DNA from: Kiritimatiella glycovorans
Lineage (GTDB): Bacteria; Verrucomicrobiota; Kiritimatiellia; Kiritimatiellales; Kiritimatiellaceae
NCBI RefSeq assembly: GCF_001017655.1
Contig: NZ_CP010904.1
Location: forward strand, 2,910,001 to 2,942,000
Direction of reading: 5' to 3'
Length of the DNA stretch: 32,000 bases
The stretch's first letter is position 1, and every line of letters begins with the position of its first letter. Shown here piece by piece: positions 1,527-29,225 of this stretch. The notes beneath the pieces were generated by a model. It did not search any database and was not told where the DNA came from. It saw only the letters and a list, made by a program, of their open reading frames with translations. Position numbers and translations under genes: made by a program.

Positions 1527-1528
1527 GC

Positions 1529-1996: not shown

Positions 1997-2063
1997 CCAA
2001 CCGGCTCCTCTGCGCCCTCCATCCTGGTTCAGGTTCGTGTCTCATTCTTATTGGCACAGAGGG

Positions 2064-2961: not shown

Positions 2962-3136
2962 CCGATGACACGGATGGGATCTCGAAATCCGAATCGAAGT
3001 CGAAATCGGGATTCATAGAGATCATAATTCGTACGCGTACTCGGAGCGCCGAAGGCGCGATCCCACTTCCCCGATTCAAGTAATTCGAGTACGAGTACCG
3101 CTTCGCTGAGTACGAGTACGAGTACGATATTCCCCC
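2962..3136. repeat. Mosaic intergenic repeat, copy a (modules X - hexamer arm - core - hexamer arm - partial Y)
   Basis: It shares long identical blocks with the loci at 7566, 12755, 16792, 22829, 23372 and 24886. The core GGAGCGCCGAAGGCGCGATCCCACTTCCCC lies at 3043-3072. Confidence 0.8.
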
Positions 3137-3151
3137 GGGTGTCCCCATGTT

Positions 3152-3991: not shown

Positions 3992-4082
3992 CCATATCCG
4001 CAGTCAATGACGGGAAAGCAGGGATGAGAGCGGGGCGTTTCAAGCGCAAAACCGGAGCCGTGTAGTCCGTGTCGCCGGGATT

Positions 4083-4832: not shown

Positions 4833-4891
4833 CCGGTTACCCTCCACAGTTCACCCGTTCAATATCCGCTTTCGGGAGGGAATGCAAGCCG

Positions 4892-6384: not shown

Positions 6385-6459
6385 CAAGCCGGACCCCCTC
6401 ACGGGTCTCAGCAACAGGAGGCGCAGCTGTGGTACCGGGCCATGGGAATCCGGACCTGA
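4984..6459 (+). CDS. IS256-family transposase (Mutator family, DDE)
   Basis: The ATG at 4984 has an AAGGAG RBS. The family signature is present (RIQRCLVHKERNI, LLDGIVL, VLDGSRAL, NCIENPFRN). Conserved sequence ends near ...GYRQIPVLLKSL (~6165). The ORF then continues ~98 low-complexity codons through the right IR into flanking DNA. Confidence 0.8.
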   Translation: MSDNSVLEALGQVEPSAAGDVFRDWLRGEMRTLIADILAEEVTELCGPAYKPAGDRGCRRAGGTRVGLRIDGIDEEIRKPRVRRHEADTSKEVRLKSYDAVNRADDLRDRILRATAAGVSSRDQKTLYPDSAPGRSRVSRAWIVEGRQRIQKLRDRDLKSERFFCMLLDGIVLSEDLSAIVGLGITLDGRKVMLDFEIGAQESTEVCDALLDRLVHRGLEFEGDPLAVLDGSRALHNSVLKHFPRARIQRCLVHKERNIKRCLSRRHHGSVSDLFKRLRSVEGEEAGREALADLERFLSRHSHKALESLHEAGEELITVHKLNAPSTLHTTLTNTNCIENPFRNTRAKIGRVKRWRAETDQAERWLAYSLLRAEKGFRRIKGYRQIPVLLKSLGWPSEAVEASLRSALGPPGHPASGGNGLHSTTPHPQAESEANCRTGTGQVNDKELHRNEDRDRQRVSTGFGTSPQAGPPHGSQQQEAQLWYRAMGIRT

Positions 6460-8913: not shown

Positions 8914-9166
8914 ACAGGCGGCAGAGCGGAGCGGACGCTTCGGCAGCTTTGCCGATGGTGTGAACGGCAGCGGCACACGGGATGTACGGCTTGGCCCTGC
9001 CCGGTACGCGGACATGCAAATTCTCTGACCCTTTAGCCACTGAAAGGGAGCTCGGAGTCCGGCAGTGGCCGTATACCCCTGAAGGGGAAACGATAAACCG
9101 CCGGCAGAGCACCCACCTTGTTACCGTGGTCCAGAGATGAGCATAACAGTCGGCCGGGCGGGGCCT
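8914..9166 (+). ncRNA. Candidate structured non-coding RNA or long structured 5' leader of rarA (family unassigned)
   Basis: About 250 nt lie between the promoter and the rarA ATG with no convincing ORF. Several local hairpins are present (GTGTG..CACAC, GCCACTG..CAGTGGC, CCCC-TGAA-GGGG). The segment ends with GGCC-GGGCGG-GGCC followed by T5. Confidence 0.3.
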
Positions 9167-9170
9167 TTTT

Positions 9171-10523
9171 ATGGATCTGTTCACCTCCGACAACCGGGAT
9201 CGGGACGAAAGCGGCGGCGGGCGTACACGGCCGCTGGCTGACCGCGTCCGTCCGGATACCCTCGATGAAATCTTCGGCCAGGACCACCTGCTGGCTTCGG
9301 ATAAGCTGCTGCGCCGCGCCATCGAAGCCGACCGCCTGAGCAGCATCATCCTCTACGGACCGCCGGGCACGGGCAAAACCACGCTGGCCGAGGCGATCGC
9401 GCGCACCACGCAGCGGCGCTTCGAACAGGTCAGCGGCGTAATGGCCAACGTGGCGACGCTGCGCAAAATCCTGGAGGGCGCCCGCGAGCTGCGGCGGATG
9501 CGCGGGCGTGAAACCATCCTGTTCATCGACGAAATTCACCGTTTTAACAAGGCGCAGCAGGACGTGCTGCTCCCCTACGTCGAAAAGGGCGATGTCACGC
9601 TGATCGGGGCGACCACCCACAATCCGTTTTTCTTCATCAACAGCCCGCTGACCTCCCGCTCCCAGATCTTTCAGCTCAGACCGCTCGACACCGGCACTAT
9701 GGGGCAGGTGCTCGAACGGGCGATCCACCATCCCGAGGGACTCGGACCTCTGCGGATCGAGCTGCAGGACGACGCCCGCGAACACCTCTGCTCGATCTGT
9801 GAAGGCGATGCCCGCCGCGCGCTGAATGCGCTGGAAATCGCGGCCCTCACCACGCCCGCGGGCGAGGACGGTGTCCGGCGGCTGGACCGCGGGGTCATCG
9901 AGGATTCCGTCCAGAAGAAGGCGGTGGTTTACGACCACGACGAGGACGAGCACTACGACACCATTTCCGCGTTTATCAAGAGCGTGCGCGGCTCCGACCC
10001 GCACGCCGCGGTCTACTGGCTGGCCAAAATGCTCTATGCGGGAGAAGACCCGCGCTTCATCGCACGCCGCCTGATCATCCTGGCCTCGGAGGACATCGGC
10101 AACGCCGACCCGCACGGCCTCCCGCTCGCGGTCGCGAGCCTGAACGCCGTCGATTTCGTCGGCATGCCGGAGGCCCGCATCATACTTTCGCAGGCCACGA
10201 CCTACCTCGCGACGGCCCCGAAAAGCAACGCGGCTTACCGGGCCATCGAAGAGGCCGGACGCGACGTCGAACAGGGAAACACCCTCCCGGTGCCCGACCA
10301 CCTGCGCGATACGCATTACCGCGGCGCCCGCGAGCTGGGCCACGAGGGCTACAAGTACGCCCACGACTACGAGGGGCACTTCGTCGACCAGGAATACGTC
10401 CCCACCTCGAAGATCTATTACCGGCCCTCCCGGGAAGGACGCGAAGCCGAGATCCGCGCGCGCATGCTCGAGTGGCATCGTGCGCGGAAAAAAACGCCGC
10501 GAAAAGATGAACCGTCTCGCTAA
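9171..10523 (+). CDS. rarA: Replication-associated recombination protein A (AAA+ ATPase, MgsA/RarA)
   Basis: Walker A GPPGTGKTT, Walker B ILFIDEIHRF, and the MgsA C-terminal domain (HYDTISAFIKSVRGSDPHAAVYWLAKML..GEDPRFIARRL). Confidence 0.9.
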   Translation: MDLFTSDNRDRDESGGGRTRPLADRVRPDTLDEIFGQDHLLASDKLLRRAIEADRLSSIILYGPPGTGKTTLAEAIARTTQRRFEQVSGVMANVATLRKILEGARELRRMRGRETILFIDEIHRFNKAQQDVLLPYVEKGDVTLIGATTHNPFFFINSPLTSRSQIFQLRPLDTGTMGQVLERAIHHPEGLGPLRIELQDDAREHLCSICEGDARRALNALEIAALTTPAGEDGVRRLDRGVIEDSVQKKAVVYDHDEDEHYDTISAFIKSVRGSDPHAAVYWLAKMLYAGEDPRFIARRLIILASEDIGNADPHGLPLAVASLNAVDFVGMPEARIILSQATTYLATAPKSNAAYRAIEEAGRDVEQGNTLPVPDHLRDTHYRGARELGHEGYKYAHDYEGHFVDQEYVPTSKIYYRPSREGREAEIRARMLEWHRARKKTPRKDEPSR

Positions 10524-11103
10524 AGACAAGGCCCGGAGGTGGGGACGCGCAGGGCGGGCCTCTCTCCCCCCCGATGCACGCGCTCGCAAAAACCGCGCTC
10601 TGTGCCGTCGTCTGACCCGGCTGAAGCCTTTTATCACGGCGCGCTCCGTTGCCCTCTACAGGGCCGTCGGCGATGAAGTCGACCTCTCGGAGGTGGAGGC
10701 GCCCCTCCGCGCCCGGGGGGTGCGTATCTACCTGCCCCGCTATAACGGCGAACAATACGAAATGGCGCTCTGGCAACCGGACACCCCCCTCGAAAGAGGG
10801 CCGCTCGGCATCCCGCAGCCCCCGGGACCGGCCGCAGGCGAACATGAGATCGATCTCGTGCTGGTTCCCGGCCTCGCATTCGACGTGCAAGGGAACCGGG
10901 CCGGCCACGGGGGCGGCCATTACGATCGCATGCTGAAAAATCTCCGCGCCTTCCGGACCGGCGTCGCCTTCGACGCCCAGCTCGTGCCGCGAATCGAAAC
11001 GGCCCCGCACGATGTTCCGGTTCGCCTTGTGCTCACCGAACGCAGGTTGTACGGTATCAATGCCGAACGATTCTCAATTCTGAGTGTCGAACGAGGCGGA
11101 TAA
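10507..11103 (+). CDS. 5-formyltetrahydrofolate cyclo-ligase (MTHFS/YgfA family)
   Basis: The blocks DLVLVPGLAFDVQGNRAGHGGGHYDR and ...PHDVPVRLVLTE are diagnostic. The start is chosen at ATG 10507, which overlaps the rarA end by 17 nt. The alternative start at 10480 is less likely. Confidence 0.8.
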   Translation: MNRLAKDKARRWGRAGRASLPPDARARKNRALCRRLTRLKPFITARSVALYRAVGDEVDLSEVEAPLRARGVRIYLPRYNGEQYEMALWQPDTPLERGPLGIPQPPGPAAGEHEIDLVLVPGLAFDVQGNRAGHGGGHYDRMLKNLRAFRTGVAFDAQLVPRIETAPHDVPVRLVLTERRLYGINAERFSILSVERGG

Positions 11104-16791: not shown

Positions 16792-16868
16792 GAATCGGGA
16801 TCGCGTTCGGGATCGGGAGTCACCATGAAGCTCATGAAGCACGGCGGGGGTGCTTAGCCCGCCCCCGC
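16792..16868. repeat. Mosaic intergenic repeat, reduced copy f (degenerate core plus CATGAAGNN x2 plus GC hairpin)
   Basis: GAATCGGGATCGCGTTCGGG...TCACCATGAAGCTCATGAAGCACGG matches parts of 12838-12875 and 22846-22880. GCGGGGG..CCCCCGC forms a hairpin between the convergent gene ends. Confidence 0.6.
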
Positions 16869-16885
16869 GAATGGCGCCCATGACC

Positions 16886-17758
16886 TTATTCCTCCGCGGC
16901 CACGAGGCGCGTGACGCGGAAGCCCTCTTTCTCGAGCAGGTGCAGGACGCCTTTTTCGCCGACGAGATGGCCTGCGCCCACCAGCACGAACTCCGTCTCC
17001 GGCGAGCGCGCGAAGGCGGTCAGCTCATCCATCCAGTCACGGTTGCGTTCGACAATGATCTCCCGGTACAGCTCCGGATGCTTGCGCTTCATGTCGCGGT
17101 TGAGCAGCTCCTGAAGCGCCTCGCGATCCCCGTTCCGCCACGCCGACAGCAGTCCGGTCAGCATTTCGGAGGTCGACGCGATATCGTTCACGAACTGCTG
17201 CACCAGCTCATCCTCGTGCCCCTCGCCCATCGAGGCGAGCAGGTCGATCTGCTTCGAGAGGGGTTCGAGCCGGCCGACCTGCTTGCCTTCCTCGACGGCC
17301 CGGCGGTAGAAGTGCATATCGACCCCCTCCTGGTCGACCCCGAGGCGCTGCAGCTCGAGCTGCATCAGCGTGAGAACGGCCATCCAGGGTTTCAACGCCT
17401 GCAGGCTGGCCGGGGGGATGTCGGCCGAATGGCAGTACCGTTTGAGCGTCTTCCAGGACTTGGCGGAGAGCGCCTCCTGCAGTGTCGTGCCGTCCTGGTA
17501 GACGCCGCGCTGGAGCAGCTCACGCTGAACCTCCGGGTCGTTGAGCCCGCCCAAATCGGTTTCAAAAACCAGCAGGCCCGACGTTTCATACGCCGTTTCA
17601 AATTCCCGGGGCAGCGGGTAATCCGACTCGCGAAGGACATGACAGGTGCCGCCCACATACATGCGGTTCCCGTCAGCCCGCACTTCCCAGACCGAACTCT
17701 GCGCCGAGGCGCCGAAGGCCAGCCCGAGAACCGCGGGTCCGATGATCCGCCTGGTCAT
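16886..17758 (-). CDS. TraB/GumN-family protein (secreted)
   Basis: Family blocks YVGGTCHVL, LVFETD and VLVGAGHLVGEKGVLHLLEKEGFRV. The start is chosen at 17758 because it gives a signal peptide (MTRRIIGPAVLGLAFGASAQS). The ORF track starts earlier, at 17878. Confidence 0.75.
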   Translation of the reverse strand: MTRRIIGPAVLGLAFGASAQSSVWEVRADGNRMYVGGTCHVLRESDYPLPREFETAYETSGLLVFETDLGGLNDPEVQRELLQRGVYQDGTTLQEALSAKSWKTLKRYCHSADIPPASLQALKPWMAVLTLMQLELQRLGVDQEGVDMHFYRRAVEEGKQVGRLEPLSKQIDLLASMGEGHEDELVQQFVNDIASTSEMLTGLLSAWRNGDREALQELLNRDMKRKHPELYREIIVERNRDWMDELTAFARSPETEFVLVGAGHLVGEKGVLHLLEKEGFRVTRLVAAEE

Positions 17759-17963
17759 TTTTTTCCGGTCCAACACGCTCGCTCCTCCCGGGTTTACCGT
17801 CGGTCTTCCGGGGCACGATTGTGCACGCACCGCGCTGAAGTGCAAGCGCGACGGGCGCATGCTCACATTTACACACACTTACGCTTTGATTTGCCGAGCC
17901 GCCTGTGTTCATATCGTGCGCTCAGGTTTTCGCAGATACGGGTAAACTTAACCCCTGATCATC

Positions 17964-19058
17964 ATGTCACCGGCACATCGGCTACTCCACGCGCCCCCGG
18001 TCCGCGCCGCCATGCTCGCATGGGCGCTCTGCCTTGCCGTACCCCTGTCCGCGGCGGGCGCCGAACGGCTCCGGATCGAAACCGAACTCTACCGGATGTC
18101 CGGCGTGTTCCCGGAGATGAACCAGATCGCGCTGGTTCACGATGTTCCGCTGCAGGGCATGCGCTGCATGTTCATCGCCCGGCTCCCCGAACTGGACGGC
18201 GAGCTGCGGATCGGCTTCGCGAACGGGCCGGTGCCCGAGGACGAGGAGAGTGTGAGTGCACGCATCGAAGAGGTGCTGGGCACGGTCGGCACGCTGTTTG
18301 CCGAACAGGTGGAGAGCGGGGAGATCGACCGCCCGGGCCCGTCGTACGGCGCCGCCATCTCGCGGCGGTTTCTGGACGAGACGCTGTATGTCGCGGCCTT
18401 CGAATCCTCCGGCCGGATCGCCGTGCTCCACCTCAACGGGTCCGCGGAACACGAAAAAGTACTCCGCGCCGGGCGCGAGCTGGCGCGCAGCCTGAAGATC
18501 AAACCGCCGGTCGTGGAAGGCGGCGTGGTGCTCCGCCCGTACTACGACCCCGACGAAGGCCTCGGCCTCGACTACCCCGAAGGCATGCGCCTGGTGCCTT
18601 CGACGATGCCCGGCGCAGGCCTCGTGGCCCAATTCGCCGGCAACGGAGACCAGCCGTTCGATACCATCCAGATCTACGACCGCAGCGGCATCTTCCGGCG
18701 CAACTCGATCGACGTCCCCGCACCCGGCGATTTCGACAGCGCTCTGCACTATCTGCGCGAAGCGCATGCACAGCTGATGAAGCGCATGGGGCAGGAAACC
18801 AGCGAAGGGCTGCGCGTGGCCCGGGATCACGGCGGGCTCTACCTCGCGGATACCTTTCGCCATCCGGAAGGAAAGCAGTACCGCGTCTACTACCTCATCT
18901 CGCACGGACGCTTCTACAGCCTGGAATTCGCCTCCGGCGGCGAGTTGAACGACGAACTCGCCCGCCGCATATTCCGCTCGCTGCGCCTGCCGGAGAAGAC
19001 GAAGGCTTCGCGCGAAAAGGACGCCGAAGGGGAACACGAAAACCCCGCGATCAGGTAG
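17964..19058 (+). CDS. Hypothetical secreted protein
   Basis: 364-aa ORF with coding-like composition and a signal-like N-terminus (AAMLAWALCLAVPLSAAGA). I recognise no family. Confidence 0.55.
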   Translation: MSPAHRLLHAPPVRAAMLAWALCLAVPLSAAGAERLRIETELYRMSGVFPEMNQIALVHDVPLQGMRCMFIARLPELDGELRIGFANGPVPEDEESVSARIEEVLGTVGTLFAEQVESGEIDRPGPSYGAAISRRFLDETLYVAAFESSGRIAVLHLNGSAEHEKVLRAGRELARSLKIKPPVVEGGVVLRPYYDPDEGLGLDYPEGMRLVPSTMPGAGLVAQFAGNGDQPFDTIQIYDRSGIFRRNSIDVPAPGDFDSALHYLREAHAQLMKRMGQETSEGLRVARDHGGLYLADTFRHPEGKQYRVYYLISHGRFYSLEFASGGELNDELARRIFRSLRLPEKTKASREKDAEGEHENPAIR

Positions 19059-19258
19059 AGGACGATCTCTTAGGCCGCCGCTCTTATCCGTGAAATTGGT
19101 GTCGTCCGTGGTCGTCCCCGAAATTAAACAATCCGAGCCGAACCTCCGTGGTGCTTTCCGCGTTTTACCTCACGCAACCCTCCCCATCCGCTTTCCCTTT
19201 TTTCATTTCTCAACTTCGTGCCGATGACGTACATTCGGCACTCAATCCCGCAAGGAGC

Positions 19259-20180
19259 ATGAGAATCTTGGATACGTCAACACTGCTCGAGCTTTACAGA
19301 CCCATCTGGACGGCCCGGCGCGTGGATGAAATGGAACAGGCGCTCGCCCACCGCGGCGAGGCGTTCTTCTTCATCCCCGGCTCCGGTCACGAGGCCGCGG
19401 CGGCGCTGGCGCCGCACCTGACCGCCGCCGACTGGCTGCACTGCCACTACCGCGACAAGGCGCTCGCCCTGGCGCGCGGCGTCAGCGTGGAGTCGATGTT
19501 CGCCGCCCTGCTCGCGCGCGACCCGTCCGGCAGCGCGGGGCGCCGTATGCCCGATTTCCCCTGCGATCCGGAACTGAACATCCTCAGCACCCCCACGCTC
19601 GTCGGCAACAACGCCCTGCAGGCGGCCGGCGTCGCGGCGGCGGTGAAGGACCGCGAGGGCGCGCCGGTGGTCTACTGCGGGCTGGGCGACGGCGCGACGC
19701 AGGAAGGCGAGTTCTTCGAGGCGGTGGCGGAGGCCGTCCGCGCGACCCTGCCGGTGCTCTTCGTCGTTCAGGACAACCGCTACGCGCTGTCGACACTCAC
19801 CGCAGGCCAGACGTTCTACTCGACGCCCGACGGCAACCCCGAAACGTTCTACGGTCTCCCGATCCGCCGCGTCGAGGGCGCGGACGTCGCGGCGTGCCAC
19901 GAGACCTTCGGCGCGGCCGTGGCCGAGGCGCGCGAACACCGCCGCCCGCAGATCGTCTGCATGCGCTGTGAGCGGCTGCAGAGTCATACGAACGCCGACG
20001 ACCATACCGCGTACCGCACGGAGGAGGATCTGGCCGAGGCGGCGGAGCACGGCGATCCCCTGCGCAACCTGGAGCGTATGCTGATCGACGCGGGCGAGGA
20101 GGCGTCGCGGCTTCGGGCGATCGAGGAGGAATGCGAACAGGCCGTGCAGGACGCCCTCGCCGCCGCCCGTGCCGGGGCGG
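19259..20180 (+). other. Domain: E1 alpha, TPP-binding (E1_dh type)
   Basis: TPP motif GLGDGATQEGEFFEAVAEAVRATLPVLFVVQDNRYA, and the loop SHTNADDHTAYRTEED equivalent to HSTSDD..YR of branched-chain/pyruvate E1 alpha. Confidence 0.8.
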
Positions 20181-22609
20181 AACCGGAAGCGGCGCTCAGC
20201 GCGAAGAAGCCGCTGCCGGTCGAGCTGACCGACCCGAAACGCGAATATCGCGGCACGGGAGAACGCAAGCTCACCATGATCGCCGCCCTGCGCGCGGCCC
20301 TGCGCGTGCGGCTGGAGGAGGAAGACGCGGCGTACGTCTGGGGTGAGGACCTCGAAGACCCCAAAGGCGACGTCTTCGGGCTCGCGAAGGGACTCAGCTC
20401 CGCCTTCCCGGGCCGCGTGCGCAACGCCCCGCTGAGCGAGGCCACCATCGTCGGCGCCGCCGTCGGCCAGGCGCTCGCGGGCCGCCGGCCGGTCGCGTGT
20501 CTGCAGTTCGCCGACTTCCTGCCGCCCGCGTTCAATCAGATCGCCTCGGAGCTGGGCACGATGTACTGGCGCACCAACGGGCGCCTGGAGGCGCCGGTGA
20601 CCGTGCTCTCGGTCTGCGGCGGATATCGCCCCGGCCTCGGGCCGTTTCACGCGCAGACGCCCTCCGCCGTGGCCGCCCACCTGCCGGGAATCGACGTCTT
20701 TCTGCCCTCGACCGCGGCCGACGCGGCGGGGCTGCTGCTGGCGGCGCTGCGCTCGGACCGGCCGTCGATCTTCTTCTATCCCAAAAACCTCCTGAATGAC
20801 CGCAGCGTCGCGACGTCGGAGGACATCGACCGCCACTTCGTTCCGATCGGGAAGGCGCGAATCGCGCGGGCGGGCGGCGACCTGACGCTCGTCGCGTGGG
20901 GCAGCACTATGCCCACGGCCCTTCGTACGGCGGAGGCCGTCGAGCAGGCCGGCCTCTCGGTCGAGGTCGTCGATCTGCGTACGCTCTCGCCGTGGGACCG
21001 CGAGGCGGTATTTGAATCCACCTCGAAAACCGGCCGGCTGCTGGTGATCGATGAAGACCACCAGACCTGCGGGATGGCGGGCGAGGTCTGCGCCGCGGTG
21101 GCGGAGGCGCAGGGCGAACGGGTTCGCGTGGCGCGGCTGGGCGCCGCCGACGCGTATGTCCCCTACCACTTCGGCAACCAGCTCGACGTGCTGCCGTCGT
21201 TCCGGCCCGTGCTCGAAAAGGCTGCGGAGATGCTCGATTGCTCCGTGCGCTGGAACCGGCGGGCCGAGGAGGAGGAAGGGCGGGTGACGGTCAAGACGCT
21301 GGGATCGAGTCCCTCCGACGAGACGGTGAAGATCGTCGAACTGCACGCCGCCGCGGGCGAGGCGGTCGAAGAGGGCGCGCCGCTGGCGTCGGTCGAGGCG
21401 GACAAGGCGACGATGGAGATCGAGGCGCCGCTGGCGGGTACGGTGGAGAAGGTGCTGCTTTCGGAAGGCGACGAGGTGGACGTCGGGGCACCGCTGCTGA
21501 CGCTGGTGCCGTCGGTGGAGGCCGCGGCGCGGCCGCAGACGACCGACGATCCCGGCATCCCGGTGGTCGAAAAGCAGCGCAGCGTGACGGAGGCGGCGGC
21601 CCCGGCGACGCAAGGACACGAGCGCGAGAGCGCCCCGACGGTGATCTCATCGATCTGCTCCGCCCTGGGATCGCAGCTGAAGACGAACGATGAGCTCGTG
21701 GAAATCTGTCCCGGCTGGTCGCCGGACGACGTCGTACAGCGTACGGGGATCCGGAAGCGGCACTGGATCGGCGAAGGCGAATCGGCGCTCTCGCTCGCCG
21801 TGGACGCCTGTCACAAACTCTTTGAACGCGAGGGCGTGACGGTCAACGACTTCGACGCCATCATCTGCAGCACGGGGACGCCGCCCTCGACCACCCCGTC
21901 GCTGGCCTGCCGGATCCTGAAGGAGCTCAGTCCCGAGGAGGGCGAGACGCTGATCCCGGCGCACGACATCAATGCGGCGTGTTCGGGCTACCTGTACGCC
22001 CTGCAGCAGGCCTGCGACATGCTCGAGCACGACCCCGGCGCGCGGATCCTGCTGGTGACGAGCGAGACGCTCTCGCCGATGCTGAATAAGGATGATCCGG
22101 GCACGTTTTTCCTGTTCGGTGACGCCGCGACCGCTTCGCTGGTCTCGCGGGAACAGCGCGGGGGCAACCTCAACCTGCGGGTCGGGCGACCGGTACTCTC
22201 GGCGATGGGGGCCGAGGAGAAGGTGCTCTACGTGCCCTCGCTGCAGAGCGGGACGTTCATGGAGATGGACGGGCGGAGCGTATTCCGGATCGCCGTGCGG
22301 AAGATGATCGACATGCTCGACCGCGCCTGTGCGCAGGAGGGCGCGACGGTCGACGACCTTTCCCTGATTGTCCCGCACCAGGCGAACGGGAGGATTATTG
22401 AGGCGATACGCAAGGCCATCAAGTTTCCGACGGATAAGGTGTTCTACTACATTCGCGATTACGGCAACACCTCGTCGAACACCATCCCGCTCAGCCTCGA
22501 AGCGCTGCCCTCCGACCTCCCGCCCGGCGGGAAGATCGGGCTGACGGCATTCGGCGGCGGCTTCACCTTTGCCGCCGGCGTGGTGGAGACGCTCGAGCGG
22601 CCGCAATAA
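19259..22609 (+). CDS. Multidomain fusion protein (1116 aa): 2-oxoacid dehydrogenase E1 alpha (TPP) + E1 beta + lipoyl domain + FabH-type 3-oxoacyl synthase III
   Basis: The ATG at 19259 has an AAGGAG RBS. One frame with no stops covers all four homology regions. Details are given in the four domain features below. Confidence 0.85.
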   Translation: MRILDTSTLLELYRPIWTARRVDEMEQALAHRGEAFFFIPGSGHEAAAALAPHLTAADWLHCHYRDKALALARGVSVESMFAALLARDPSGSAGRRMPDFPCDPELNILSTPTLVGNNALQAAGVAAAVKDREGAPVVYCGLGDGATQEGEFFEAVAEAVRATLPVLFVVQDNRYALSTLTAGQTFYSTPDGNPETFYGLPIRRVEGADVAACHETFGAAVAEAREHRRPQIVCMRCERLQSHTNADDHTAYRTEEDLAEAAEHGDPLRNLERMLIDAGEEASRLRAIEEECEQAVQDALAAARAGAEPEAALSAKKPLPVELTDPKREYRGTGERKLTMIAALRAALRVRLEEEDAAYVWGEDLEDPKGDVFGLAKGLSSAFPGRVRNAPLSEATIVGAAVGQALAGRRPVACLQFADFLPPAFNQIASELGTMYWRTNGRLEAPVTVLSVCGGYRPGLGPFHAQTPSAVAAHLPGIDVFLPSTAADAAGLLLAALRSDRPSIFFYPKNLLNDRSVATSEDIDRHFVPIGKARIARAGGDLTLVAWGSTMPTALRTAEAVEQAGLSVEVVDLRTLSPWDREAVFESTSKTGRLLVIDEDHQTCGMAGEVCAAVAEAQGERVRVARLGAADAYVPYHFGNQLDVLPSFRPVLEKAAEMLDCSVRWNRRAEEEEGRVTVKTLGSSPSDETVKIVELHAAAGEAVEEGAPLASVEADKATMEIEAPLAGTVEKVLLSEGDEVDVGAPLLTLVPSVEAAARPQTTDDPGIPVVEKQRSVTEAAAPATQGHERESAPTVISSICSALGSQLKTNDELVEICPGWSPDDVVQRTGIRKRHWIGEGESALSLAVDACHKLFEREGVTVNDFDAIICSTGTPPSTTPSLACRILKELSPEEGETLIPAHDINAACSGYLYALQQACDMLEHDPGARILLVTSETLSPMLNKDDPGTFFLFGDAATASLVSREQRGGNLNLRVGRPVLSAMGAEEKVLYVPSLQSGTFMEMDGRSVFRIAVRKMIDMLDRACAQEGATVDDLSLIVPHQANGRIIEAIRKAIKFPTDKVFYYIRDYGNTSSNTIPLSLEALPSDLPPGGKIGLTAFGGGFTFAAGVVETLERPQ
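20264..21238 (+). other. Domain: E1 beta (transketolase pyrimidine-binding plus C-terminal domains)
   Basis: LTMIAALRAAL...VWGEDL...APLSEATIVGAAVGQALAGRRPVACLQFADFLPPAFNQI...PSTAADAAGLLLAALRSDRPSIFFYPK...VVDLRTLSPWD. Confidence 0.8.
21281..21508 (+). other. Domain: lipoyl-attachment (biotinyl/lipoyl fold), followed by an Ala/Pro-rich linker (21509-21637)
   Basis: LASVEADKATMEIEAPLAGTVEKVLLSEGDEVDVGAPLLTL. The DKA lysine codon is at 21404-21406. The motif is E-x-DKA (lipoyl type), not the biotinyl MKM type. Confidence 0.75.
21638..22606 (+). other. Domain: KAS III / FabH-like condensing enzyme with an intact Cys-His-Asn triad
   Basis: HDINAACSGYLYAL (Cys codon 21980-21982), VPHQANGRI (His 22376-22378), YGNTSSNTIP (Asn 22466-22468), and the C-terminal FGGGFTF. 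Confidence 0.8.
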
Positions 22610-22734: not shown

Positions 22735-22808
22735 GGGCCCGTAGCTCAGTCGGTCAGAGCAGGAGACTCATAATCTCTTGGTCGGGGGTTCGAGTCCCTC
22801 CGGGCCCA
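22735..22808 (+). tRNA. tRNA with anticodon CAT (elongator Met or lysidine-modified Ile2 type; not an initiator)
   Basis: Manual cloverleaf: acceptor GGGCCCG/CGGGCCC, D arm GCTC..GAGC, anticodon stem GGAGA/TCTCT with loop CTCATAA, and T arm GGGGG-TTCGAGT-CCCTC. It is 74 nt with no encoded CCA. Confidence 0.9.
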
Positions 22809-22828: not shown

Positions 22829-23047
22829 GTACTCAGCGAAAATGGGATTCACCATGAAGGCCATGAAGAGCATGAAGGTTGGTTGAGGGGGGGGGACGTA
22901 ATCCGTACTCGCACTCGTACTCGTACTCGTACTCGGAGCGCCGAAGGCGCGATCCCACTCCCCCTGTTCAAGGAACTCGAGTACGAATTATGTTCTCTCT
23001 GAATCCCGGCTTCGACTTCGATCCGGATTTCGAGATCCCATCCGTGT
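22829..23047. repeat. Mosaic intergenic repeat, copy d (partial Y rc - nonamer array x3 - G-run - GTACTC x5 - core - arm - X rc)
   Basis: CATGAAGNN x3 at 22853-22879, five hexamer units (four GTACTC plus one GCACTC variant) at 22905-22934, core at 22935-22963, and the X module (reverse complement of 2969-3034) at 22981-23047. Confidence 0.85.
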
Positions 23048-23056
23048 TCTCTCTTA

Positions 23057-23259
23057 CGCTCGTAGTAGGCCCGCAGGTCCGCGAAGCGGACAAGGGCCGT
23101 TATCTTTCACGCGCCTGGCCTGCCGGAGGGGCAGGCGTGCGGCGCTACTACGAACTTCCTCACGCTCGTAGTAGGCCCGCAGGTCCGCGCAGCAGACAAG
23201 GGCCGTTATCTTTCACGCGCCTGGCCTGCCGGGGGCAGACTTGCGGCGCTACTACGAAC
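23057..23259. repeat. Tandem direct duplication, 2 x ~100 bp units (period 106 bp), each internally self-complementary
   Basis: Units at 23057-23155 and 23163-23259 are ~90% identical. Each is bounded by TCGTAGTAGG...CGCTACTACGA and contains GTCCGC-GAA-GCGGAC and GCCTGCC-GGAG-GGGCAGGC hairpins (unit 1). Confidence 0.85.
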
Positions 23260-23371
23260 GCTTGTCGTCTCCCATCCCGACCCCGGCATCCTCTGTGACC
23301 GCTGTGGTGAATCCCCGTCCCGCCTCTTCCCCGAACGGCTCCACCACAAAAAATTTGCGAAGAACCAAAAA

Positions 23372-25828: not shown

Positions 25829-26497
25829 TCAGCCGGATTTATTCAATGCGCCCTGAAGATGAAGCTTATGTGAAAGCACGGCGAGAGTGGATGCGAGGTC
25901 CTCTCGCTGGAGGATAACCTCCTCCGGCACGTGGAGGCGGGTGGGGGTGAAGTTCCATATTCCGCGTATCCCGCCCGCGACCATTGCGTCGGCCACCTCC
26001 TGGGCGACGGCGGCCGGGACGGTGAGGATACCGAGCCGCACGTGCATCCGTCGCGCGAGATCCGCGAGCCGGTCGATATGCAGCACCGTTTTACCGTAGA
26101 TCCTGCGGCCGACCGTCCCGGAGTCGACATCGAACGCGGCGGTGATGCGCAGGCCGTGCTGTTCGAATCCCCTGTACCCGAGCAGGGCCTGACCGAGCGA
26201 ACCCGTGCCGGCGAGAAACGCGTCGGTGGTGTTCGACCAGCCGAGAAACTCCTCGACGGACTCGATCAGTTCATGCAGCGGAAATCCCAGCCGGGGTTTT
26301 CCCCGCGCGCCGGTGATTGCAAGGTCTTTACGGACAACGATCGGGTCCAGCTCCAGTTCGCGCGCCAGAACGGCGCCGGAGGCGTATTCCGCGCCCTCTT
26401 CGCGCATCCGTCGCAGCAGACGGAGATAAAGGGGGAGCCGCTTGAGCGTCGGCACCCCCGCCGTCTTACATGCCATGGCGTCCGGTTGATCACTCAT
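25829..26497 (-). CDS. rex: Redox-sensing transcriptional repressor Rex
   Basis: N-terminal winged helix (LKRLPLYLRLL), Rossmann NADH-binding motif (AGTGSLGQALL), and the ILTVPAAVAQEV...GIRGIWNFTP blocks. An alternative GTG start lies at 26515. Confidence 0.88.
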   Translation of the reverse strand: MSDQPDAMACKTAGVPTLKRLPLYLRLLRRMREEGAEYASGAVLARELELDPIVVRKDLAITGARGKPRLGFPLHELIESVEEFLGWSNTTDAFLAGTGSLGQALLGYRGFEQHGLRITAAFDVDSGTVGRRIYGKTVLHIDRLADLARRMHVRLGILTVPAAVAQEVADAMVAGGIRGIWNFTPTRLHVPEEVILQREDLASTLAVLSHKLHLQGALNKSG

Positions 26498-26645
26498 GAC
26501 CCGTGAGTTAAACACGGGCCCCGCTATATTACGATCTTTTTCAATCGATATTATTATATTTATTGCTTGCCCGCCCGGCGCGCGCAGTGTATCGGTGTTT
26601 ATATATCGATATCAGAGGAGCTATATTAACGAGGGGGGGTACTCC

Positions 26646-29225
26646 ATGACGGATGAAGCGAAAAAGGTATTGCAGGAGATGGTCGATCGTGTGCGAACGG
26701 CGCAGGAGCGCTATGCCGTGTTTGATCAGGAGGCGGTGGACGGGATATTCCGCCACGCCGCCCTCGCGGCGAACCGTGAACGCATCCGGCTTGCCCGCAT
26801 GGCGGCGGAAGAGACCGGCATGGGCATCGTGGAGGATAAGGTCATCAAAAACCACTTCGCGAGTGAATTCATCTACAACAAGTACAAGGACACCCAGACC
26901 TGTGGGGTACTGGAGGAGGACCCCTCGTTCGGGATCCGCCGCATCGCGGAGCCGATCGGGGTAATCGCGGGCGTCGTGCCGACCACCAATCCCACCTCGA
27001 CCGCGATTTTCAAGGCGCTGCTCGCCCTGAAAACCCGCAACGGCATCATTTTTTCGCCGCACCCGCGCGCAAAAGCGTGCACGGCGGAGGCCGCTCGAGT
27101 GGTCGGGCGTGCAGCCGTCGAAGCCGGCGCGCCGGAGGGTTTGATCGCCTGCATTGAGGAGCCTGCCGTCGAATTGTCGAACGCGCTTATGAAGCATCCC
27201 GACATCCGTCTCGTCCTGGCGACCGGAGGGCCGGGCATGGTTCGCGCCGCCTACAGCAGCGGCAAGCCGGCGCTCGGCGTGGGAGCGGGCAATACACCGG
27301 CGGTGATCGATGAAACCGCCTGCGTGCGGACGGCCGTCAACAGCATCCTGCTCAGCAAGACATTCGACCACGGCGTCATCTGCGCCAGCGAACAGAGCGC
27401 CGTAGCCGTGGACGCGGTTTACGGCGAGGTCCGCGACGAGTTCGAGCGGCGCGGGGCGGCTATACTTACGCCCGGCCAGAAAGAAAAAGTCGGCGCCGTA
27501 CTGCTCAAAGACGGAAAACTGAACGCGGCGAACGTAGGCCAGCCAGCGGCAAAGATTGCCGCCGCAGCGGGCATCGAGGTGCCGCCGGAAACAAAGGTGC
27601 TCGTCGCCGAGGTCGATGAGGTCGGCGAACACGAACCCTTTGCCTTCGAGAAGCTCAGCCCGGTGCTGGCCCTCTACCGTGCCCCCGCATTCGACCGGGC
27701 CGTGGACCGGGCCGTGGAGCTGGTGACGTTCGGAGGAATCGGTCACACCTCGGTGCTGTATACCGATCCCCGCAATACGGAGCGCATCGACCGCTTCGGC
27801 GCGCGCATGAAGACCGGCCGGGTGCTGGTCAACATGCCCAGCAGCCAGGGCGCCATCGGCGATATCTACAACTTCAAACTCGAACCCTCGCTCACCCTCG
27901 GCTGCGGGAGCTGGGGCGGCAACAGCGTGAGCGAAAACGTGGGGGTCAAACACCTGATGAACATCAAGACCGTGGCGGAACGGCGCGAGAACATGCTCTG
28001 GTTCCGGGTACCGCCGAAAGTGTACTTCAAGTACGGCTGCCTGCCGGTCGCGATGGGTGAACTGGCCGGGCGGAAGCGCGCGCTTATCGTGACTGACAAG
28101 CCGCTCTACGATCTCGGCTTCGCCGACCGCATCGCCACGGTGCTCGACGGGATGGGCATCGATCACCAGACCTTCTATGATGTCCGGCCCGACCCCGATC
28201 TGGCCACGGTCCGCGCGGGACTGAAGGTGATGACCACGTTCCGGCCGGATGTCGTGATCGCACTGGGAGGCGGCTCGCCGATGGACGCCGCCAAGATCAT
28301 GTGGCTCATGTATGAAAATCCGGGCATGAAGTTCGAGGACATGGCGATGCGGTTCATGGACATCCGCAAGCGGATCTACGCTTTCCCCGAAACGGGTCGC
28401 AGGGCGATCCTGGTCGCCGTGCCGACAACCAGTGGTACGGGTTCGGAAGTGACGCCTTTCGCGGTGGTCACCGACGACGCGACCGGGGCCAAGTACCCGA
28501 TCGCGGACTACGCGCTGACGCCGGACATGGCGATCGTCGATCCGGAGCTGGTGATGCACATGCCGGCGAACCTGACGGCGTACGGCGGCGTGGATGCCCT
28601 GACACATGCCCTCGAGGCGATCGTCAGCGTCCTGAGCACGGAGTTCACAAACTGCCAGGCTCTGGAGGCGGTCAGGCTGCTGTTCAAGTACCTCCCCGAC
28701 GCCTACGAGCACGGTGCGGCGGACCGCAAAGCACGCGAGAAGGTTCATTACGCGGCGACCTTGGCGGGCATGGCGTTCGCCAATGCCTTCCTCGGCGTCT
28801 GCCACAGCATGGCGCACAAGCTCGGCGCCGCGTTCGACCTGCCGCACGGTCTGGCCAACGCGCTGCTGATCGGCGAGGTGATCCGCTACAACGCCACGGA
28901 CCGACCGCTCAAACAGGCCGCCTTCCCGCAATACAGCTGGCCGACGGCCAGGGAGCGGTACGCGCGGGTTGCGGACTACCTGCAGCTCGGCGGCGCAACC
29001 CCGGACGAGAAGGTGGAACGGCTGATCGCCGCGGTCGGGGACCTGAAGCAGCGGCTGGACATACCGGCGACGATACGGGAGGCCGGGGTCCCCGAGGGTG
29101 CATTCCGGGAACGTCTCGACGAGCTGGCTGAAGATGCGTTCGACGATCAGTGCACAGGCGCCAACCCGCGCTACCCGCTCATCGGCGAACTCCGCCGTCT
29201 CTACCGTCGTGCGTACGGGAAATAA
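26646..29225 (+). CDS. adhE: Bifunctional acetaldehyde-CoA / alcohol dehydrogenase
   Basis: 859 aa. N-terminal acylating ALDH domain (catalytic Cys context FDHGVICASEQS) and a C-terminal iron-ADH domain (GGGSPMDAAK, metal-binding His residues in CHSMAHKLG). The ATG at 26646 has a G-rich RBS. Confidence 0.93.
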   Translation: MTDEAKKVLQEMVDRVRTAQERYAVFDQEAVDGIFRHAALAANRERIRLARMAAEETGMGIVEDKVIKNHFASEFIYNKYKDTQTCGVLEEDPSFGIRRIAEPIGVIAGVVPTTNPTSTAIFKALLALKTRNGIIFSPHPRAKACTAEAARVVGRAAVEAGAPEGLIACIEEPAVELSNALMKHPDIRLVLATGGPGMVRAAYSSGKPALGVGAGNTPAVIDETACVRTAVNSILLSKTFDHGVICASEQSAVAVDAVYGEVRDEFERRGAAILTPGQKEKVGAVLLKDGKLNAANVGQPAAKIAAAAGIEVPPETKVLVAEVDEVGEHEPFAFEKLSPVLALYRAPAFDRAVDRAVELVTFGGIGHTSVLYTDPRNTERIDRFGARMKTGRVLVNMPSSQGAIGDIYNFKLEPSLTLGCGSWGGNSVSENVGVKHLMNIKTVAERRENMLWFRVPPKVYFKYGCLPVAMGELAGRKRALIVTDKPLYDLGFADRIATVLDGMGIDHQTFYDVRPDPDLATVRAGLKVMTTFRPDVVIALGGGSPMDAAKIMWLMYENPGMKFEDMAMRFMDIRKRIYAFPETGRRAILVAVPTTSGTGSEVTPFAVVTDDATGAKYPIADYALTPDMAIVDPELVMHMPANLTAYGGVDALTHALEAIVSVLSTEFTNCQALEAVRLLFKYLPDAYEHGAADRKAREKVHYAATLAGMAFANAFLGVCHSMAHKLGAAFDLPHGLANALLIGEVIRYNATDRPLKQAAFPQYSWPTARERYARVADYLQLGGATPDEKVERLIAAVGDLKQRLDIPATIREAGVPEGAFRERLDELAEDAFDDQCTGANPRYPLIGELRRLYRRAYGK

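What the first reader, a model, noticed from the sequence alone, without database searches (positions are those of the whole stretch)
19259..22609. E1alpha-E1beta-lipoyl-KAS III in a single polypeptide: a possible CoA-independent link from 2-oxoacid decarboxylation to fatty-acid/polyketide priming
Seen in sequence: one 3351-nt ORF with a good RBS carries four regions in the same frame. (i) A TPP-dependent E1 alpha with the GDG...N TPP motif. (ii) A full E1 beta. (iii) A lipoyl domain with the E-A-D-K-A lysine. (iv) After an Ala/Pro-rich E2-style linker, a complete FabH-type KAS III with Cys (21980), His (22376) and Asn (22466). Established knowledge: in 2-oxoacid dehydrogenase complexes, E1 reductively acylates the lipoyl arm of E2, and the E2 catalytic core passes the acyl group to CoA. 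FabH is then primed by acyl-CoA; for example, branched-chain 2-oxoacid dehydrogenase feeds FabH to make iso/anteiso fatty acids. Inference: here the condensing enzyme occupies the position normally held by the E2 core. The S-acyl-dihydrolipoyl arm could therefore load the KAS III cysteine directly, bypassing acyl-CoA, followed by condensation with malonyl-ACP. Alternatively, the KAS III fold could act purely as an acyltransferase, functionally replacing E2. I do not recognise this architecture as described, and it is the best candidate for a novel system in this window.
Basis: partly seen in the sequence, partly recalled or inferred. Interest (0 to 1): 0.9.

Follow-up and report, generated by a model that had tools for sequence, protein, structure and literature searches.

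The report
Oxoacid decarboxylase–lipoyl–FabH fusion enzyme
One 1116-residue protein joins a 2-oxoacid decarboxylase, a lipoyl swinging arm and a fatty-acid-starting condensing enzyme, so it probably turns 2-oxoisovalerate or pyruvate straight into the first fatty-acyl-ACP intermediate without acyl-CoA; the design is widespread but I found no study of it.

Summary
ORF 19259-22609 (+) is uninterrupted and encodes E1alpha, E1beta, a lipoyl domain (Lys716), a roughly 45-residue flexible linker and a FabH-type KAS III (Cys908/His1040/Asn1070), all with strong profile scores. There is no E2 catalytic core and no E3-binding domain.

The window matches Kiritimatiella glycovorans at 100% identity. The architecture is not an artefact: full-length copies occur in all 80 best-matching species genomes (582 encode a relative), across Kiritimatiellota, Lentisphaerae, Planctomycetota, Spirochaetota, Gloeobacterales and others. 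The gene almost always stands alone.

Several results support a condensing enzyme fed by the lipoyl arm:
- The catalytic triad and the proposed ACP-docking Arg249 are conserved in 276 fusions.
- Arg151, which stacks on the adenine of CoA in E. coli FabH, is never Arg.
- Sister proteins carry an E2 core, a thioesterase or E2-ACP at the same position.
- Some relatives add a fused KR-ACP, a coupled ACP gene or a coupled ketoreductase gene.
- All cultured Kiritimatiellota make only even-numbered straight and iso-even fatty acids, as an isobutyryl primer predicts.

Direct lipoyl-to-cysteine transfer remains inferred. I could not check the rest of the genome for E3, E2 or a second FabH. No paper or solved structure was found.

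The parts
19259..22609 (+). Complete CDS of the E1alpha-E1beta-lipoyl-KAS III fusion (1116 aa; alternative start at TTG 19268 gives 1113 aa)
   Evidence: Uninterrupted translation. 100% identical to the Kiritimatiella glycovorans protein P0001. Start-codon context examined.
19316..20188 (+). E1 alpha (TPP-binding) domain, aa 20-310; GDG(143-145)...N173 motif; His243 in the SHTNADD motif
   Evidence: PF00676, 3.4e-42. The best solved relative is Thermus thermophilus 2-oxo acid dehydrogenase E1 alpha, 1UM9_A, 2.6e-40, with the motifs aligned. G143, N173 and H243 are invariant across the family in both A1 and A2.
20267..21184 (+). E1 beta (pyrimidine-binding plus transketolase C-terminal domains), aa 337-642; Glu394 (PLSEA) and His464 (HAQTP)
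   Evidence: PF02779, 6.9e-22, and PF02780, 4.2e-29. 1UM9_B scores 1.4e-62 with the motifs aligned. E394 and H464 are invariant.
21284..21511 (+). Lipoyl domain, aa ~676-751; lipoyl-lysine Lys716 (codon 21404-21406) in the E-A-D-K-A motif
   Evidence: PF00364, 3.5e-16. K716 is invariant in 64 and in 25 diverse fusions. The AF2 model shows a beta-barrel flanked by low-confidence linkers.
21512..21640 (+). Ala/Pro/charged flexible linker, aa ~752-794
   Evidence: AF2 pLDDT is 33-57 across aa 751-790 and below 50 at 775-790. Conservation is lower and the family alignment has gaps here. No PF02817 (E3_binding) match.
21641..22588 (+). FabH-type KAS III domain, aa 795-1110; Cys908 (21980), His1040 (22376), Asn1070 (22466); Arg1045 = E. 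coli Arg249; Pro947 at the Arg151 position; Thr879 at the Phe87 position
   Evidence: NF006829, 251.8 bits against a cutoff of 249. PF08545 and PF08541 both match. Solved FabH structures score 1e-38 to 1e-43. Residues mapped onto E. coli FabH across 120 and then 276 fusions.
19147..19162 (+). Terminator-like hairpin plus T-run between the upstream ORF and the fusion gene; suggests the gene is transcribed on its own
   Evidence: Consensus scan only, which is weak evidence. The gene is followed by tRNA-Met at 22735-22808.

Best explanation
The protein is a self-contained starter module for type II fatty-acid synthesis.

Shown by sequence: it carries an intact alpha/beta-type TPP-dependent 2-oxoacid E1, a lipoyl domain, a flexible linker and an intact Cys-His-Asn KAS III. 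It has no E2 core.

Inferred mechanism:
1. E1 decarboxylates a short 2-oxoacid. In Kiritimatiellota this is probably 2-oxoisovalerate, and perhaps also pyruvate.
2. E1 reductively acylates lipoyl-Lys716.
3. The S-acyl-dihydrolipoyl arm swings into the pantetheine tunnel of the fused KAS III and passes the acyl group to Cys908. This plays the part that acyl-CoA plays for ordinary FabH.
4. KAS III then decarboxylates malonyl-ACP and condenses it, giving 3-keto-4-methylpentanoyl-ACP (or acetoacetyl-ACP), which enters FAS II.
5. The dihydrolipoyl arm must be re-oxidised by a separately encoded E3-like flavoprotein, which I have not identified.

In Kiritimatiellota this would account for fatty acids that are exclusively even-numbered straight and iso-even.
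For: Domains and catalytic residues are intact and conserved. The polypeptide has no PF00198 or PF02817 match.

FabH residues across 276 fusions:
- Cys112 and Asn274 invariant in all 276; His244 conserved in 275.
- Arg249, which I take to be the ACP-docking residue (from memory), kept in 271.
- Arg151 is never Arg. In E. coli FabH the adenine of CoA stacks between Trp32 and Arg151 (PMC4606726).
- Asn210 is replaced. Phe87 is mostly Thr or Ser.

The C-terminal domain is interchangeable on the same E1alpha-beta-lipoyl module. Variants carry an E2 core (P0156, P0181, P0183, P0194, P0198), E2 plus ACP (P0192), a thioesterase (P0158), or form a PKS/NRPS loading module (P0184). P0156, P0158 and P0153 nest inside the KAS III clade in the E1 tree. 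This implies that the acyl-lipoyl arm hands its acyl group directly to whatever domain follows.

Links to ACP and beta-keto processing in relatives:
- P0126 is the fusion plus KR plus ACP in one chain.
- An ACP gene of about 82 aa overlaps or directly follows the KAS III stop codon in L010 and L011.
- In Spirochaetaceae loci L078 and L087 a 259-aa SDR gene starts at the base after the fusion's stop codon; L086 and L074 carry one about 180-280 nt downstream by tblastn alignment.

Phenotype: K. glycovorans, three Pontiella species and Tichowtungia have i-C12/14/16/18/20:0 plus even straight chains among their reported fatty acids. K. glycovorans forms no odd-numbered fatty acids and no anteiso-C15:0, and it grows on glucose-mineral medium (PMC5148204, PMC7356697, PMC10880615). 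The closest solved E1 is the Thermus branched-chain E1.

The AF2 model shows well-folded domains joined by low-confidence linkers on both sides of the lipoyl domain.
Against: There is no biochemical evidence. Transfer from lipoyl to a ketosynthase cysteine has no documented precedent that I know of.

I could not test whether the K. glycovorans genome also encodes an E2 core, an E3 or a second FabH.

Pirellulales also carry the fusion (Rosistilla, Lignipirellula and many MAGs). The species whose fatty acids I could read, which are not the genomes shown to carry the fusion, have straight-chain unsaturated fatty acids with no iso acids among the major ones (PMC6995999, PMC12254169). The iso-fatty-acid link therefore cannot be general, and the substrate in those organisms is more likely pyruvate or something else.

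The Trp32 position is ambiguous. HMMER aligns Asp there, while MAFFT places an invariant Trp at that column with a four-residue insertion after it.

Arg36 is replaced by Leu or Val in about a third of the planctomycete set (38 of 119), and the Lys214 and Lys256 positions are mostly uncharged there.

The score against TIGR00747 (fabH) is 216, below its 292 cutoff.

No E3 or fab genes lie next to the gene in 88 loci, apart from two loci with Lpd.
Confidence: 0.58

Rival explanations
1. The KAS III fold acts only as an acyltransferase. It takes the acyl group from the dihydrolipoyl arm onto Cys908 and passes it to holo-ACP or CoA, functionally replacing the E2 core. A different enzyme carries out the condensation.
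For: An E2 core occupies the same slot in nested relatives such as P0156, which suggests functional equivalence. E. coli FabH has an intrinsic acetyl-CoA:ACP transacylase activity (from my own knowledge). ACP genes directly follow the gene in L010 and L011.
Against: His1040 and Asn1070 are needed for malonyl decarboxylation but not for transacylation (from my own knowledge), yet they are conserved in 275 and 276 of 276 fusions respectively. From memory, KAS III-like pure acyltransferases usually have altered triads. Fused or coupled ketoreductases (P0126, and the Spirochaetaceae SDR gene) imply a beta-keto product. The Arg151 position argues against CoA as the acceptor.
Confidence: 0.15
2. This is a co-localisation ('Rosetta stone') fusion. 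E1 and the lipoyl domain work with a separately encoded E2 core and E3 to make free acyl-CoA, and the tethered FabH then uses that acyl-CoA in the ordinary way.
For: Every domain is individually canonical. I could not search the rest of the genome for PF00198. L080 has E2 and Lpd genes 8-10 kb away, and L088 has Lpd 2 kb upstream.
Against: Lipoyl domains normally belong to the E2 chain, but here the lipoyl domain is joined by an E2-style linker directly to KAS III. There is no subunit-binding domain to recruit an E2/E3 core. The residue at the Arg151 position is never Arg. No E2 lies within 10 kb in 87 of 88 loci. The thioesterase-terminated sister P0158 makes sense only if the acyl-lipoyl arm feeds the C-terminal domain directly.
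Confidence: 0.12
3. The protein primes a specialised lipid or polyketide, not bulk membrane fatty acids.
For: Some relatives have a dedicated ACP, KR-ACP or SDR partner. Pirellulales carry the fusion without major iso fatty acids (PMC6995999, PMC12254169). Related E1-lipoyl-E2-ACP units load PKS/NRPS lines (P0184; QncN/L/M as described in PMC6335953).
Against: In this window and in the seven annotated homologous loci the gene is flanked by unrelated housekeeping genes rather than biosynthetic genes; a probe of 88 loci found no ACP, FabD, PlsX, LipA or LipB nearby. It was found in every Kiritimatiellota genome that turned up in these searches. K. glycovorans has a small 2.95-Mb genome and its dominant fatty acid (i-C14:0, 42%) needs exactly this kind of primer (PMC7356697).
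Confidence: 0.12

Closest known systems
Branched-chain 2-oxoacid dehydrogenase complex plus FabH (for example Bacillus, Staphylococcus or Listeria Bkd feeding FabH for iso/anteiso fatty acids)
   Same: The chemistry matches at both ends. A TPP-dependent alpha/beta E1 reductively acylates a lipoyl-lysine, and a Cys-His-Asn KAS III condenses the primer with malonyl-ACP. The closest solved E1 is the Thermus branched-chain E1. The closest solved KAS III structures are true FabHs.
   Different: There is no E2 core, no subunit-binding domain and no adjacent E3. All the parts are in one chain. The acyl-CoA intermediate is presumably skipped, and the CoA-adenine residue Arg151 is lost. Kiritimatiellota show only iso-even products, not iso-odd or anteiso.
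QncN/QncL/QncM-type C2-unit loading (quinocarcin, naphthyridinomycin, scleric acid SclQ1-4)
   Same: A TPP E1-like enzyme loads a lipoyl domain, and the acyl unit is delivered to an ACP-bound pathway without a free CoA thioester. QncL is itself an E1beta-lipoyl-acyltransferase fusion (PMC6335953). Relatives P0192 and P0184 in this superfamily have exactly the E1-lipoyl-E2-ACP order.
   Different: In those systems an E2 acyltransferase domain moves the unit to a dedicated ACP within secondary-metabolite clusters. Here a condensing enzyme replaces the E2 domain, no dedicated ACP is encoded nearby, and the setting is housekeeping.
Stand-alone FabH (E. coli FabH; NF006829 / TIGR00747)
   Same: The domain has 35-40%-level similarity to FabH structures, E-values 1e-38 to 1e-43. 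The catalytic triad, the FGGG loop, Arg249, Asn247 and Phe157 are all conserved.
   Different: The domain is fused at the C-terminus of a 790-residue E1-lipoyl module. Arg151 becomes Gln, Pro, Phe or Leu; Asn210 is replaced; GDGAGA becomes GDAATA; Phe87 becomes Thr. It scores below the TIGR00747 cutoff.

Membership tests
2-oxoacid dehydrogenase E1, heterotetrameric alpha/beta type (PF00676 + PF02779 + PF02780) | All three Pfam domains above the gathering thresholds, in alpha-then-beta order | tested here: met
   144.9, 78.4 and 101.4 bits against cutoffs of 22, 27 and 25.9
2-oxoacid dehydrogenase E1, heterotetrameric alpha/beta type (PF00676 + PF02779 + PF02780) | TPP/Mg motif GDG-X(26-28)-N, alpha His in the H-x-x-x-D-D loop, beta Glu that activates TPP, and beta active-site His | tested here: met
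   G143-D144-G145...N173, H243 (SHTNADD), E394 (PLSEA) and H464 (HAQTP) align with Thermus 1UM9 A/B. G143, N173, H243, E394 and H464 are invariant in both A1 and A2. The roles of these residues come from my own knowledge.
2-oxoacid dehydrogenase E1, heterotetrameric alpha/beta type (PF00676 + PF02779 + PF02780) | Substrate identity (2-oxoisovalerate, pyruvate or other) | not testable with these tools
   The best PDB hit is the Thermus branched-chain E1, but PDH E1 subunits score nearly as well. The equivalog models are all below cutoff.
Lipoyl domain (PF00364) | Domain match with the conserved D-K-A lysine | tested here: met
   59.2 bits against a cutoff of 22.1. K716 in VEADKA is invariant. 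The AF2 model gives a beta-barrel.
Lipoyl domain (PF00364) | Actual lipoylation, as opposed to biotinylation or no modification | not testable with these tools
   The motif is DKA, not the biotinyl motif MKM. An LplA/B-like gene lies 2 kb upstream in one relative only (L003).
FabH / KAS III (NF006829, TIGR00747) | Cys-His-Asn triad and oxyanion FGGG loop | tested here: met
   C908, H1040, N1070 and F1098-G1101. The triad is conserved in 275-276 of 276 fusions.
FabH / KAS III (NF006829, TIGR00747) | Curated model score above cutoff | tested here: inconclusive
   NF006829 scores 251.8 against 249 and passes. TIGR00747 scores 216.2 against 292.1 and fails.
FabH / KAS III (NF006829, TIGR00747) | Acyl-CoA nucleotide site: adenine stacked between Trp32 and Arg151 (PMC4606726) | tested here: not met
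   The Arg151 position is Pro in the window protein and Gln, Pro, Phe, Leu or Tyr in the family; it is Arg in 0 of 276. The Trp32 column is Asp, Ala or Glu in ungapped alignments, with an invariant Trp four residues upstream, so that position is ambiguous.
FabH / KAS III (NF006829, TIGR00747) | ACP-docking basic patch (Arg249 and neighbours) | tested here: met
   R1045 corresponds to Arg249, which is kept in 271 of 276 fusions. Lys214 and Lys256 are Lys or Arg in the Kiritimatiellia set but mostly uncharged in the planctomycete set. The docking role is from my own knowledge.
Classical 2-oxoacid dehydrogenase complex (E1-E2-E3) | E2 catalytic core (PF00198) and peripheral subunit-binding domain (PF02817) | tested here: not met
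   Neither is found in the polypeptide. No AceF-like core lies within 10 kb in 87 of 88 loci. Presence elsewhere in the genome could not be tested.
Classical 2-oxoacid dehydrogenase complex (E1-E2-E3) | Dihydrolipoyl dehydrogenase (E3) partner | not testable with these tools
   Lpd lies within 10 kb in only 2 of 88 loci, L080 and L088.
QncN/L/M-type E1-lipoyl-E2-ACP loading system | E2 acyltransferase domain plus a dedicated ACP | tested here: not met
   There is no PF00198 in the protein and none in the window ORFs scanned with Pfam. The ORF downstream of the gene (22879-23298) has no PP-binding match, and ACP probes found nothing in the window. Some relatives do have a dedicated ACP.

The most novel reading that the evidence does not exclude
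The lipoyl swinging arm directly acylates the active-site cysteine of a ketosynthase. That would make this the first lipoyl-dependent condensing enzyme and a CoA-independent way to start fatty-acid synthesis from 2-oxoacids. It could be the main or only FabH of whole lineages (Kiritimatiellota, many Planctomycetota, Lentisphaerae, some Spirochaetota and Gloeobacterales). It would belong to a broader, unrecognised class of E1alpha-beta-lipoyl-X enzymes, where X is KAS III, a thioesterase or E2-ACP, in which the acyl-lipoyl arm feeds interchangeable acceptor domains.
Probability: 0.5. Interest if true: 0.85.

Novelty: new variant of a known kind. Interest (0 to 1): 0.75.

Why it matters
If the mechanism holds, it has several consequences.

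- **A new reaction partner for the lipoyl arm.** The arm is known to deliver acyl groups to E2 cores, and in Qnc-type systems on to an ACP. A condensing enzyme would be a new recipient.
- **A route that avoids acyl-CoA.** Central 2-oxoacids would enter fatty-acid synthesis without an acyl-CoA pool.
- **An explanation for a chemotaxonomic oddity.** Kiritimatiellota make only even-numbered straight and iso-even fatty acids, and no odd-chain acids are reported for them. A primer module selective for 2-oxoisovalerate and perhaps pyruvate gives a simple genetic reason.
- **Better annotation.** More than 500 species genomes currently label this protein with names that describe only one of its parts.
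- **An engineering part.** It would be a compact one-gene unit for making branched fatty acids or polyketide starters from 2-oxoacids.
- **A wider principle.** The sister architectures ending in a thioesterase, E2-ACP or KR-ACP suggest a modular family of E1-lipoyl loading units.

Tried and rejected
- **Conserved neighbours.** I read the annotated genes of seven homologous loci and probed 88 loci (±10 kb) with tblastn. The probes were E. coli FabH, FabD, FabG, AcpP, PlsX, the AceF core, Lpd, LipA and LipB, plus two ACPs. There is no conserved partner. Lpd appears in 2 loci and an E2 core in 1. Only a Spirochaetaceae subgroup has a coupled SDR gene.
- **Genome-wide inventory.** I could not check K. 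glycovorans for a second FabH, an E2 core, E3 or lipoylation genes. No tool gives whole-genome access, and the species' own genome did not appear in the genome-contig hits.
- **Apparent split forms.** P0165 (E1beta-lipoyl-KAS III) and P0268 (lipoyl-KAS III) are not clean evidence for separate genes. P0165 has a degraded E1alpha remnant upstream, and P0268 starts at a contig edge.
- **Loss of Trp32.** I dropped this as a firm claim, because MAFFT aligns an invariant Trp to that column with a four-residue insertion after it.
- **Fatty acids of Spirochaeta thermophila.** These would have been an independent phenotype test, but I could not find them in the paper library.
- **AlphaFold geometry.** Coordinates are not exposed, so the reach of the lipoyl arm to the two active sites could not be measured.
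- **5' leader RNA.** Rfam found no riboswitch or other RNA element in the leader.
- **Supplementary files.** None are held for Spring et al. 2016.

Full report
**Observation**

The ORF from ATG 19259 to the stop at 22607-22609 on the + strand is uninterrupted and encodes 1116 aa. Pfam finds E1_dh (aa 20-310), Transket_pyr (337-513), Transketolase_C (531-642), Biotin_lipoyl (690-749), ACP_syn_III (903-969) and ACP_syn_III_C (1024-1110). All are far above their thresholds. NCBIfam's beta-ketoacyl-ACP synthase 3 model NF006829 matches aa 795-1110 at 251.8 bits against a cutoff of 249.

There is no 2-oxoacid_dh (E2 catalytic) domain and no E3_binding domain.

The only correction concerns the ribosome-binding site. 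AAGGAG ends 1 nt before ATG 19259. The database version of the protein is 1113 aa, which implies a start at TTG 19268.

**Identity and setting**

The protein is 100% identical to a Kiritimatiella glycovorans protein. NCBI names it 'beta-ketoacyl-ACP synthase 3' and UniRef names it 'putative transketolase'.

The neighbours in the window are unrelated to lipid synthesis:
- RNase Y
- two CNNM/CBS transporters
- a TPR protein
- an unassigned 747-aa ORF
- a GH5 glycosidase
- Rex and AdhE

A terminator-like hairpin precedes the gene and a tRNA-Met follows it. The gene therefore looks monocistronic and is not part of a biosynthetic cluster.

**Each part is catalytically intact**

The closest solved relatives of the E1 half are the alpha and beta subunits of the Thermus thermophilus branched-chain 2-oxo acid dehydrogenase E1 (1UM9, 2.6e-40 and 1.4e-62). 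The GDG...N TPP motif, the alpha His (SHTNADD), the beta Glu (PLSEA) and the beta His (HAQTP) are all aligned.

The C-terminal domain matches solved FabH structures at 1e-38 to 1e-43.

In alignments of 64 and of 25 diverse fusions, K716, C908, H1040, N1070 and the E1 residues G143, N173, H243, E394 and H464 are invariant.

An AlphaFold2 model has mean pLDDT 85.9 and pTM 0.71. It gives confident folds for all domains, with low-confidence segments at 670-673, 684-686 and 775-790. That pattern fits a lipoyl domain tethered by flexible linkers.

**It is a family, not an artefact**

More than 120 full-length homologues at 55-63% identity come from Kiritimatiellia and Pontiella. A search of 1.84 billion cluster representatives found about 45 clusters (at 50% identity) with the full architecture, down to 37% identity.

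Named carriers include:
- Rosistilla carotiformis, Lignipirellula cremea, and MAGs of Pirellulaceae, Planctomycetaceae and Gemmataceae
- Lentisphaerae
- Spirochaeta thermophila and other Spirochaetaceae
- the Gloeobacterales cyanobacterium Anthocerotibacter panamensis
- Syntrophobacteraceae and Gammaproteobacteria MAGs

In the species-representative genome collection, 582 candidate stretches encode a relative. The best 80 essentially all cover the whole query (one is cut by a contig end).

**KAS III sits where the E2 core sits**

Proteins whose E1alpha-beta-lipoyl module is 36-50% identical to this one end in other domains:
- an E2 catalytic domain (P0156, P0181, P0183, P0194, P0198)
- E2 plus ACP (P0192)
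- a thioesterase (P0158)
- an unassigned domain (P0153)

P0184 is a PKS/NRPS whose loading region is E1-lipoyl-E2-ACP.

In a neighbour-joining tree of the E1 part, the KAS III proteins form one clade. P0156 (E2), P0158 (thioesterase) and P0153 are nested inside it. This is a rough tree with no support values. The C-terminal acceptor domain has therefore been swapped on a constant E1-lipoyl module. The simplest reading is that the acyl-dihydrolipoyl arm feeds whichever domain follows it.

**Condensing enzyme or mere transferase**

I mapped the domain onto E. coli FabH, using the sequence from NC_000913. Across 276 fusions:
- The triad, Phe157, Met207, Gly209, Asn247 and the FGGG loop are essentially invariant.
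- Arg249 is kept in 271. From my own knowledge this is the key ACP-docking residue.
- Arg151 is never Arg; it is Gln or Pro in Kiritimatiellia and Phe or Leu in planctomycetes.
- Asn210 is replaced, and Phe87 is mostly Thr or Ser.

In E. coli FabH-CoA structures the adenine ring stacks between Trp32 and Arg151, and Arg36 and Asn210/Asn247 hold the pantetheine (PMC4606726). All four canonical FabHs aligned have Arg and Trp at these positions. The Trp32 column itself is ambiguous in the fusions.

The conserved decarboxylation residues and the retained ACP patch favour true condensation with malonyl-ACP. Loss of the adenine clamp fits a primer that no longer arrives as acyl-CoA.

Independent links to ACP and keto-processing point the same way:
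- A singleton relative continues into KR-ACP (P0126).
- Two contigs have an ACP gene of about 82 aa overlapping or 6 nt after the KAS III stop codon.
- In Spirochaetaceae loci L078 and L087 a 259-aa SDR gene starts at the base after the fusion's stop codon; L086 and L074 carry one about 180-280 nt downstream by tblastn alignment. Its best NCBIfam match is mycolate reductase, below cutoff.

**Physiology**

K. glycovorans grows on glucose-mineral medium. It is an obligate fermenter, and its fatty acids are i-C14:0 (42%), C18:0 and i-C18:0 plus minor even-chain acids. It forms no odd-numbered fatty acids and no anteiso-C15:0 (PMC5148204, PMC7356697).

Among the major or listed fatty acids of Pontiella desulfatans, P. 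sulfatireligans, P. agarivorans and Tichowtungia are only C18:0 and i-C12/14/16/18/20:0 (PMC7356697, PMC10880615). From established fatty-acid biochemistry, iso-even chains arise from an isobutyryl primer, which comes from 2-oxoisovalerate. Iso-odd and anteiso chains need isovaleryl and 2-methylbutyryl primers. A dedicated module selective for 2-oxoisovalerate, and perhaps pyruvate, fits this profile.

The caveat is Pirellulales. They also carry the fusion, but the described species whose profiles I could read have C16:0, C16:1 and C18:1 as their major fatty acids (PMC6995999, PMC12254169). Those species are not the ones shown to carry the fusion. The substrate or role there must differ; pyruvate giving acetyl is the obvious guess.

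**What could not be settled**

- No conserved neighbour supplies E3, E2, lipoylation or fab functions. Across 88 loci, Lpd appears in 2 and an E2 core in 1.
- I could not inspect the rest of the K. glycovorans genome. Re-oxidation of the dihydrolipoyl arm, and the absence of a separate E2 or FabH, remain open.

**Prior knowledge**

I ran ten full-text searches in all. Six were aimed at the architecture or its closest precedents, and none found a description of it. The other four covered fatty-acid profiles and FabH residues. No PDB chain combines an E1 with a KAS III.

The nearest documented concept is the QncN/QncL/QncM system and its SclQ1-4 homologues. There a TPP enzyme, a lipoyl domain and an E2 acyltransferase deliver a C2 unit to an ACP (PMC6335953).

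**Verdict**

I rate it a new variant of known systems: a 2-oxoacid dehydrogenase-type loading unit fused to a FabH. It is widespread, uncharacterised and directly testable.

Noticed in passing
window 8991-9168 (+), 9171-10523 (+), 10480-11103 (+): A 6S RNA gene (Rfam RF00013, 88 bits) is followed directly by a MgsA/RarA-type AAA+ ATPase gene and then a 5-formyltetrahydrofolate cyclo-ligase gene. This resembles the E. coli ssrS-ygfA linkage (from memory), apparently kept in a PVC bacterium with one gene inserted.
   Followed up: partly
window 525-6459: This stretch is rich in mobile elements. It holds an integrase-core (rve) transposase at 525-1526 (-), a group II intron D1-D4 RNA match at 2689-2921 (-) with no recognisable reverse-transcriptase ORF, a C-terminal sulfatase fragment at 3227-3991 (+), and a Mutator-family transposase at 4942-6459 (+). 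The sulfatase gene looks disrupted.
   Followed up: partly
window 16850-19093 (+): A 747-aa ORF directly upstream of the fusion gene has no Pfam match. No counterpart is evident in the annotated gene lists upstream of the fusion in other genomes.
   Followed up: no
window 25829-26515 (-) and 26496-29225 (+): A Rex-type redox repressor (Put_DNA-bind_N plus CoA_binding) is divergent from a bifunctional AdhE, and the ORF starts overlap. This fits the ethanol fermentation reported for the organism (PMC5148204).
   Followed up: no
window 22735-22808 (+): A tRNA-Met (CAT) gene lies 126 nt after the stop codon of the fusion gene.
   Followed up: yes
P0158, P0192, P0184, P0153 (relatives, no window coordinates): The same E1alpha-beta-lipoyl module occurs with other C-terminal ends: a thioesterase (P0158), E2 core plus ACP (P0192), a loading region of a KS-MT-C-A PKS/NRPS (P0184), and an unassigned domain of about 270 aa (P0153). 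This suggests a wider family of lipoyl-arm loading modules.
   Followed up: partly
L005 10001-15829 (P0126): A 1942-aa singleton carries E1alpha-beta-lipoyl-KAS III-KR-ACP plus about 260 unassigned C-terminal residues in one chain. It sits in a non-biosynthetic context in an NCBI MAG contig.
   Followed up: partly
L078 6314-7093; L087 13361-14140; also L086 and L074: In Spirochaetaceae MAGs L078 and L087 a 259-aa classical SDR gene starts at the base after the fusion's stop codon; L086 and L074 have one about 180-280 nt downstream. Its best NCBIfam match is mycolate reductase, below cutoff.
   Followed up: partly
L010 3037-3288; L011 1376-1621: Small carrier-protein (PP-binding) genes overlap or lie 6 nt after the KAS III stop codon in two metagenomic relatives. 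The L010 gene has a degraded E1alpha remnant upstream.
   Followed up: partly
L006 6632-8368; L008 1240-2712; L003 7233-8039; L088 6745-8133: Scattered neighbours that could be relevant, each seen in one genome only: ilvD-like dehydratase 1.6 kb upstream in Rosistilla, ilvC 7 kb upstream in strain S94, an LplA/B-like ligase 2 kb upstream in a Kiritimatiellia MAG, and Lpd 2 kb upstream in a Gammaproteobacteria MAG.
   Followed up: no
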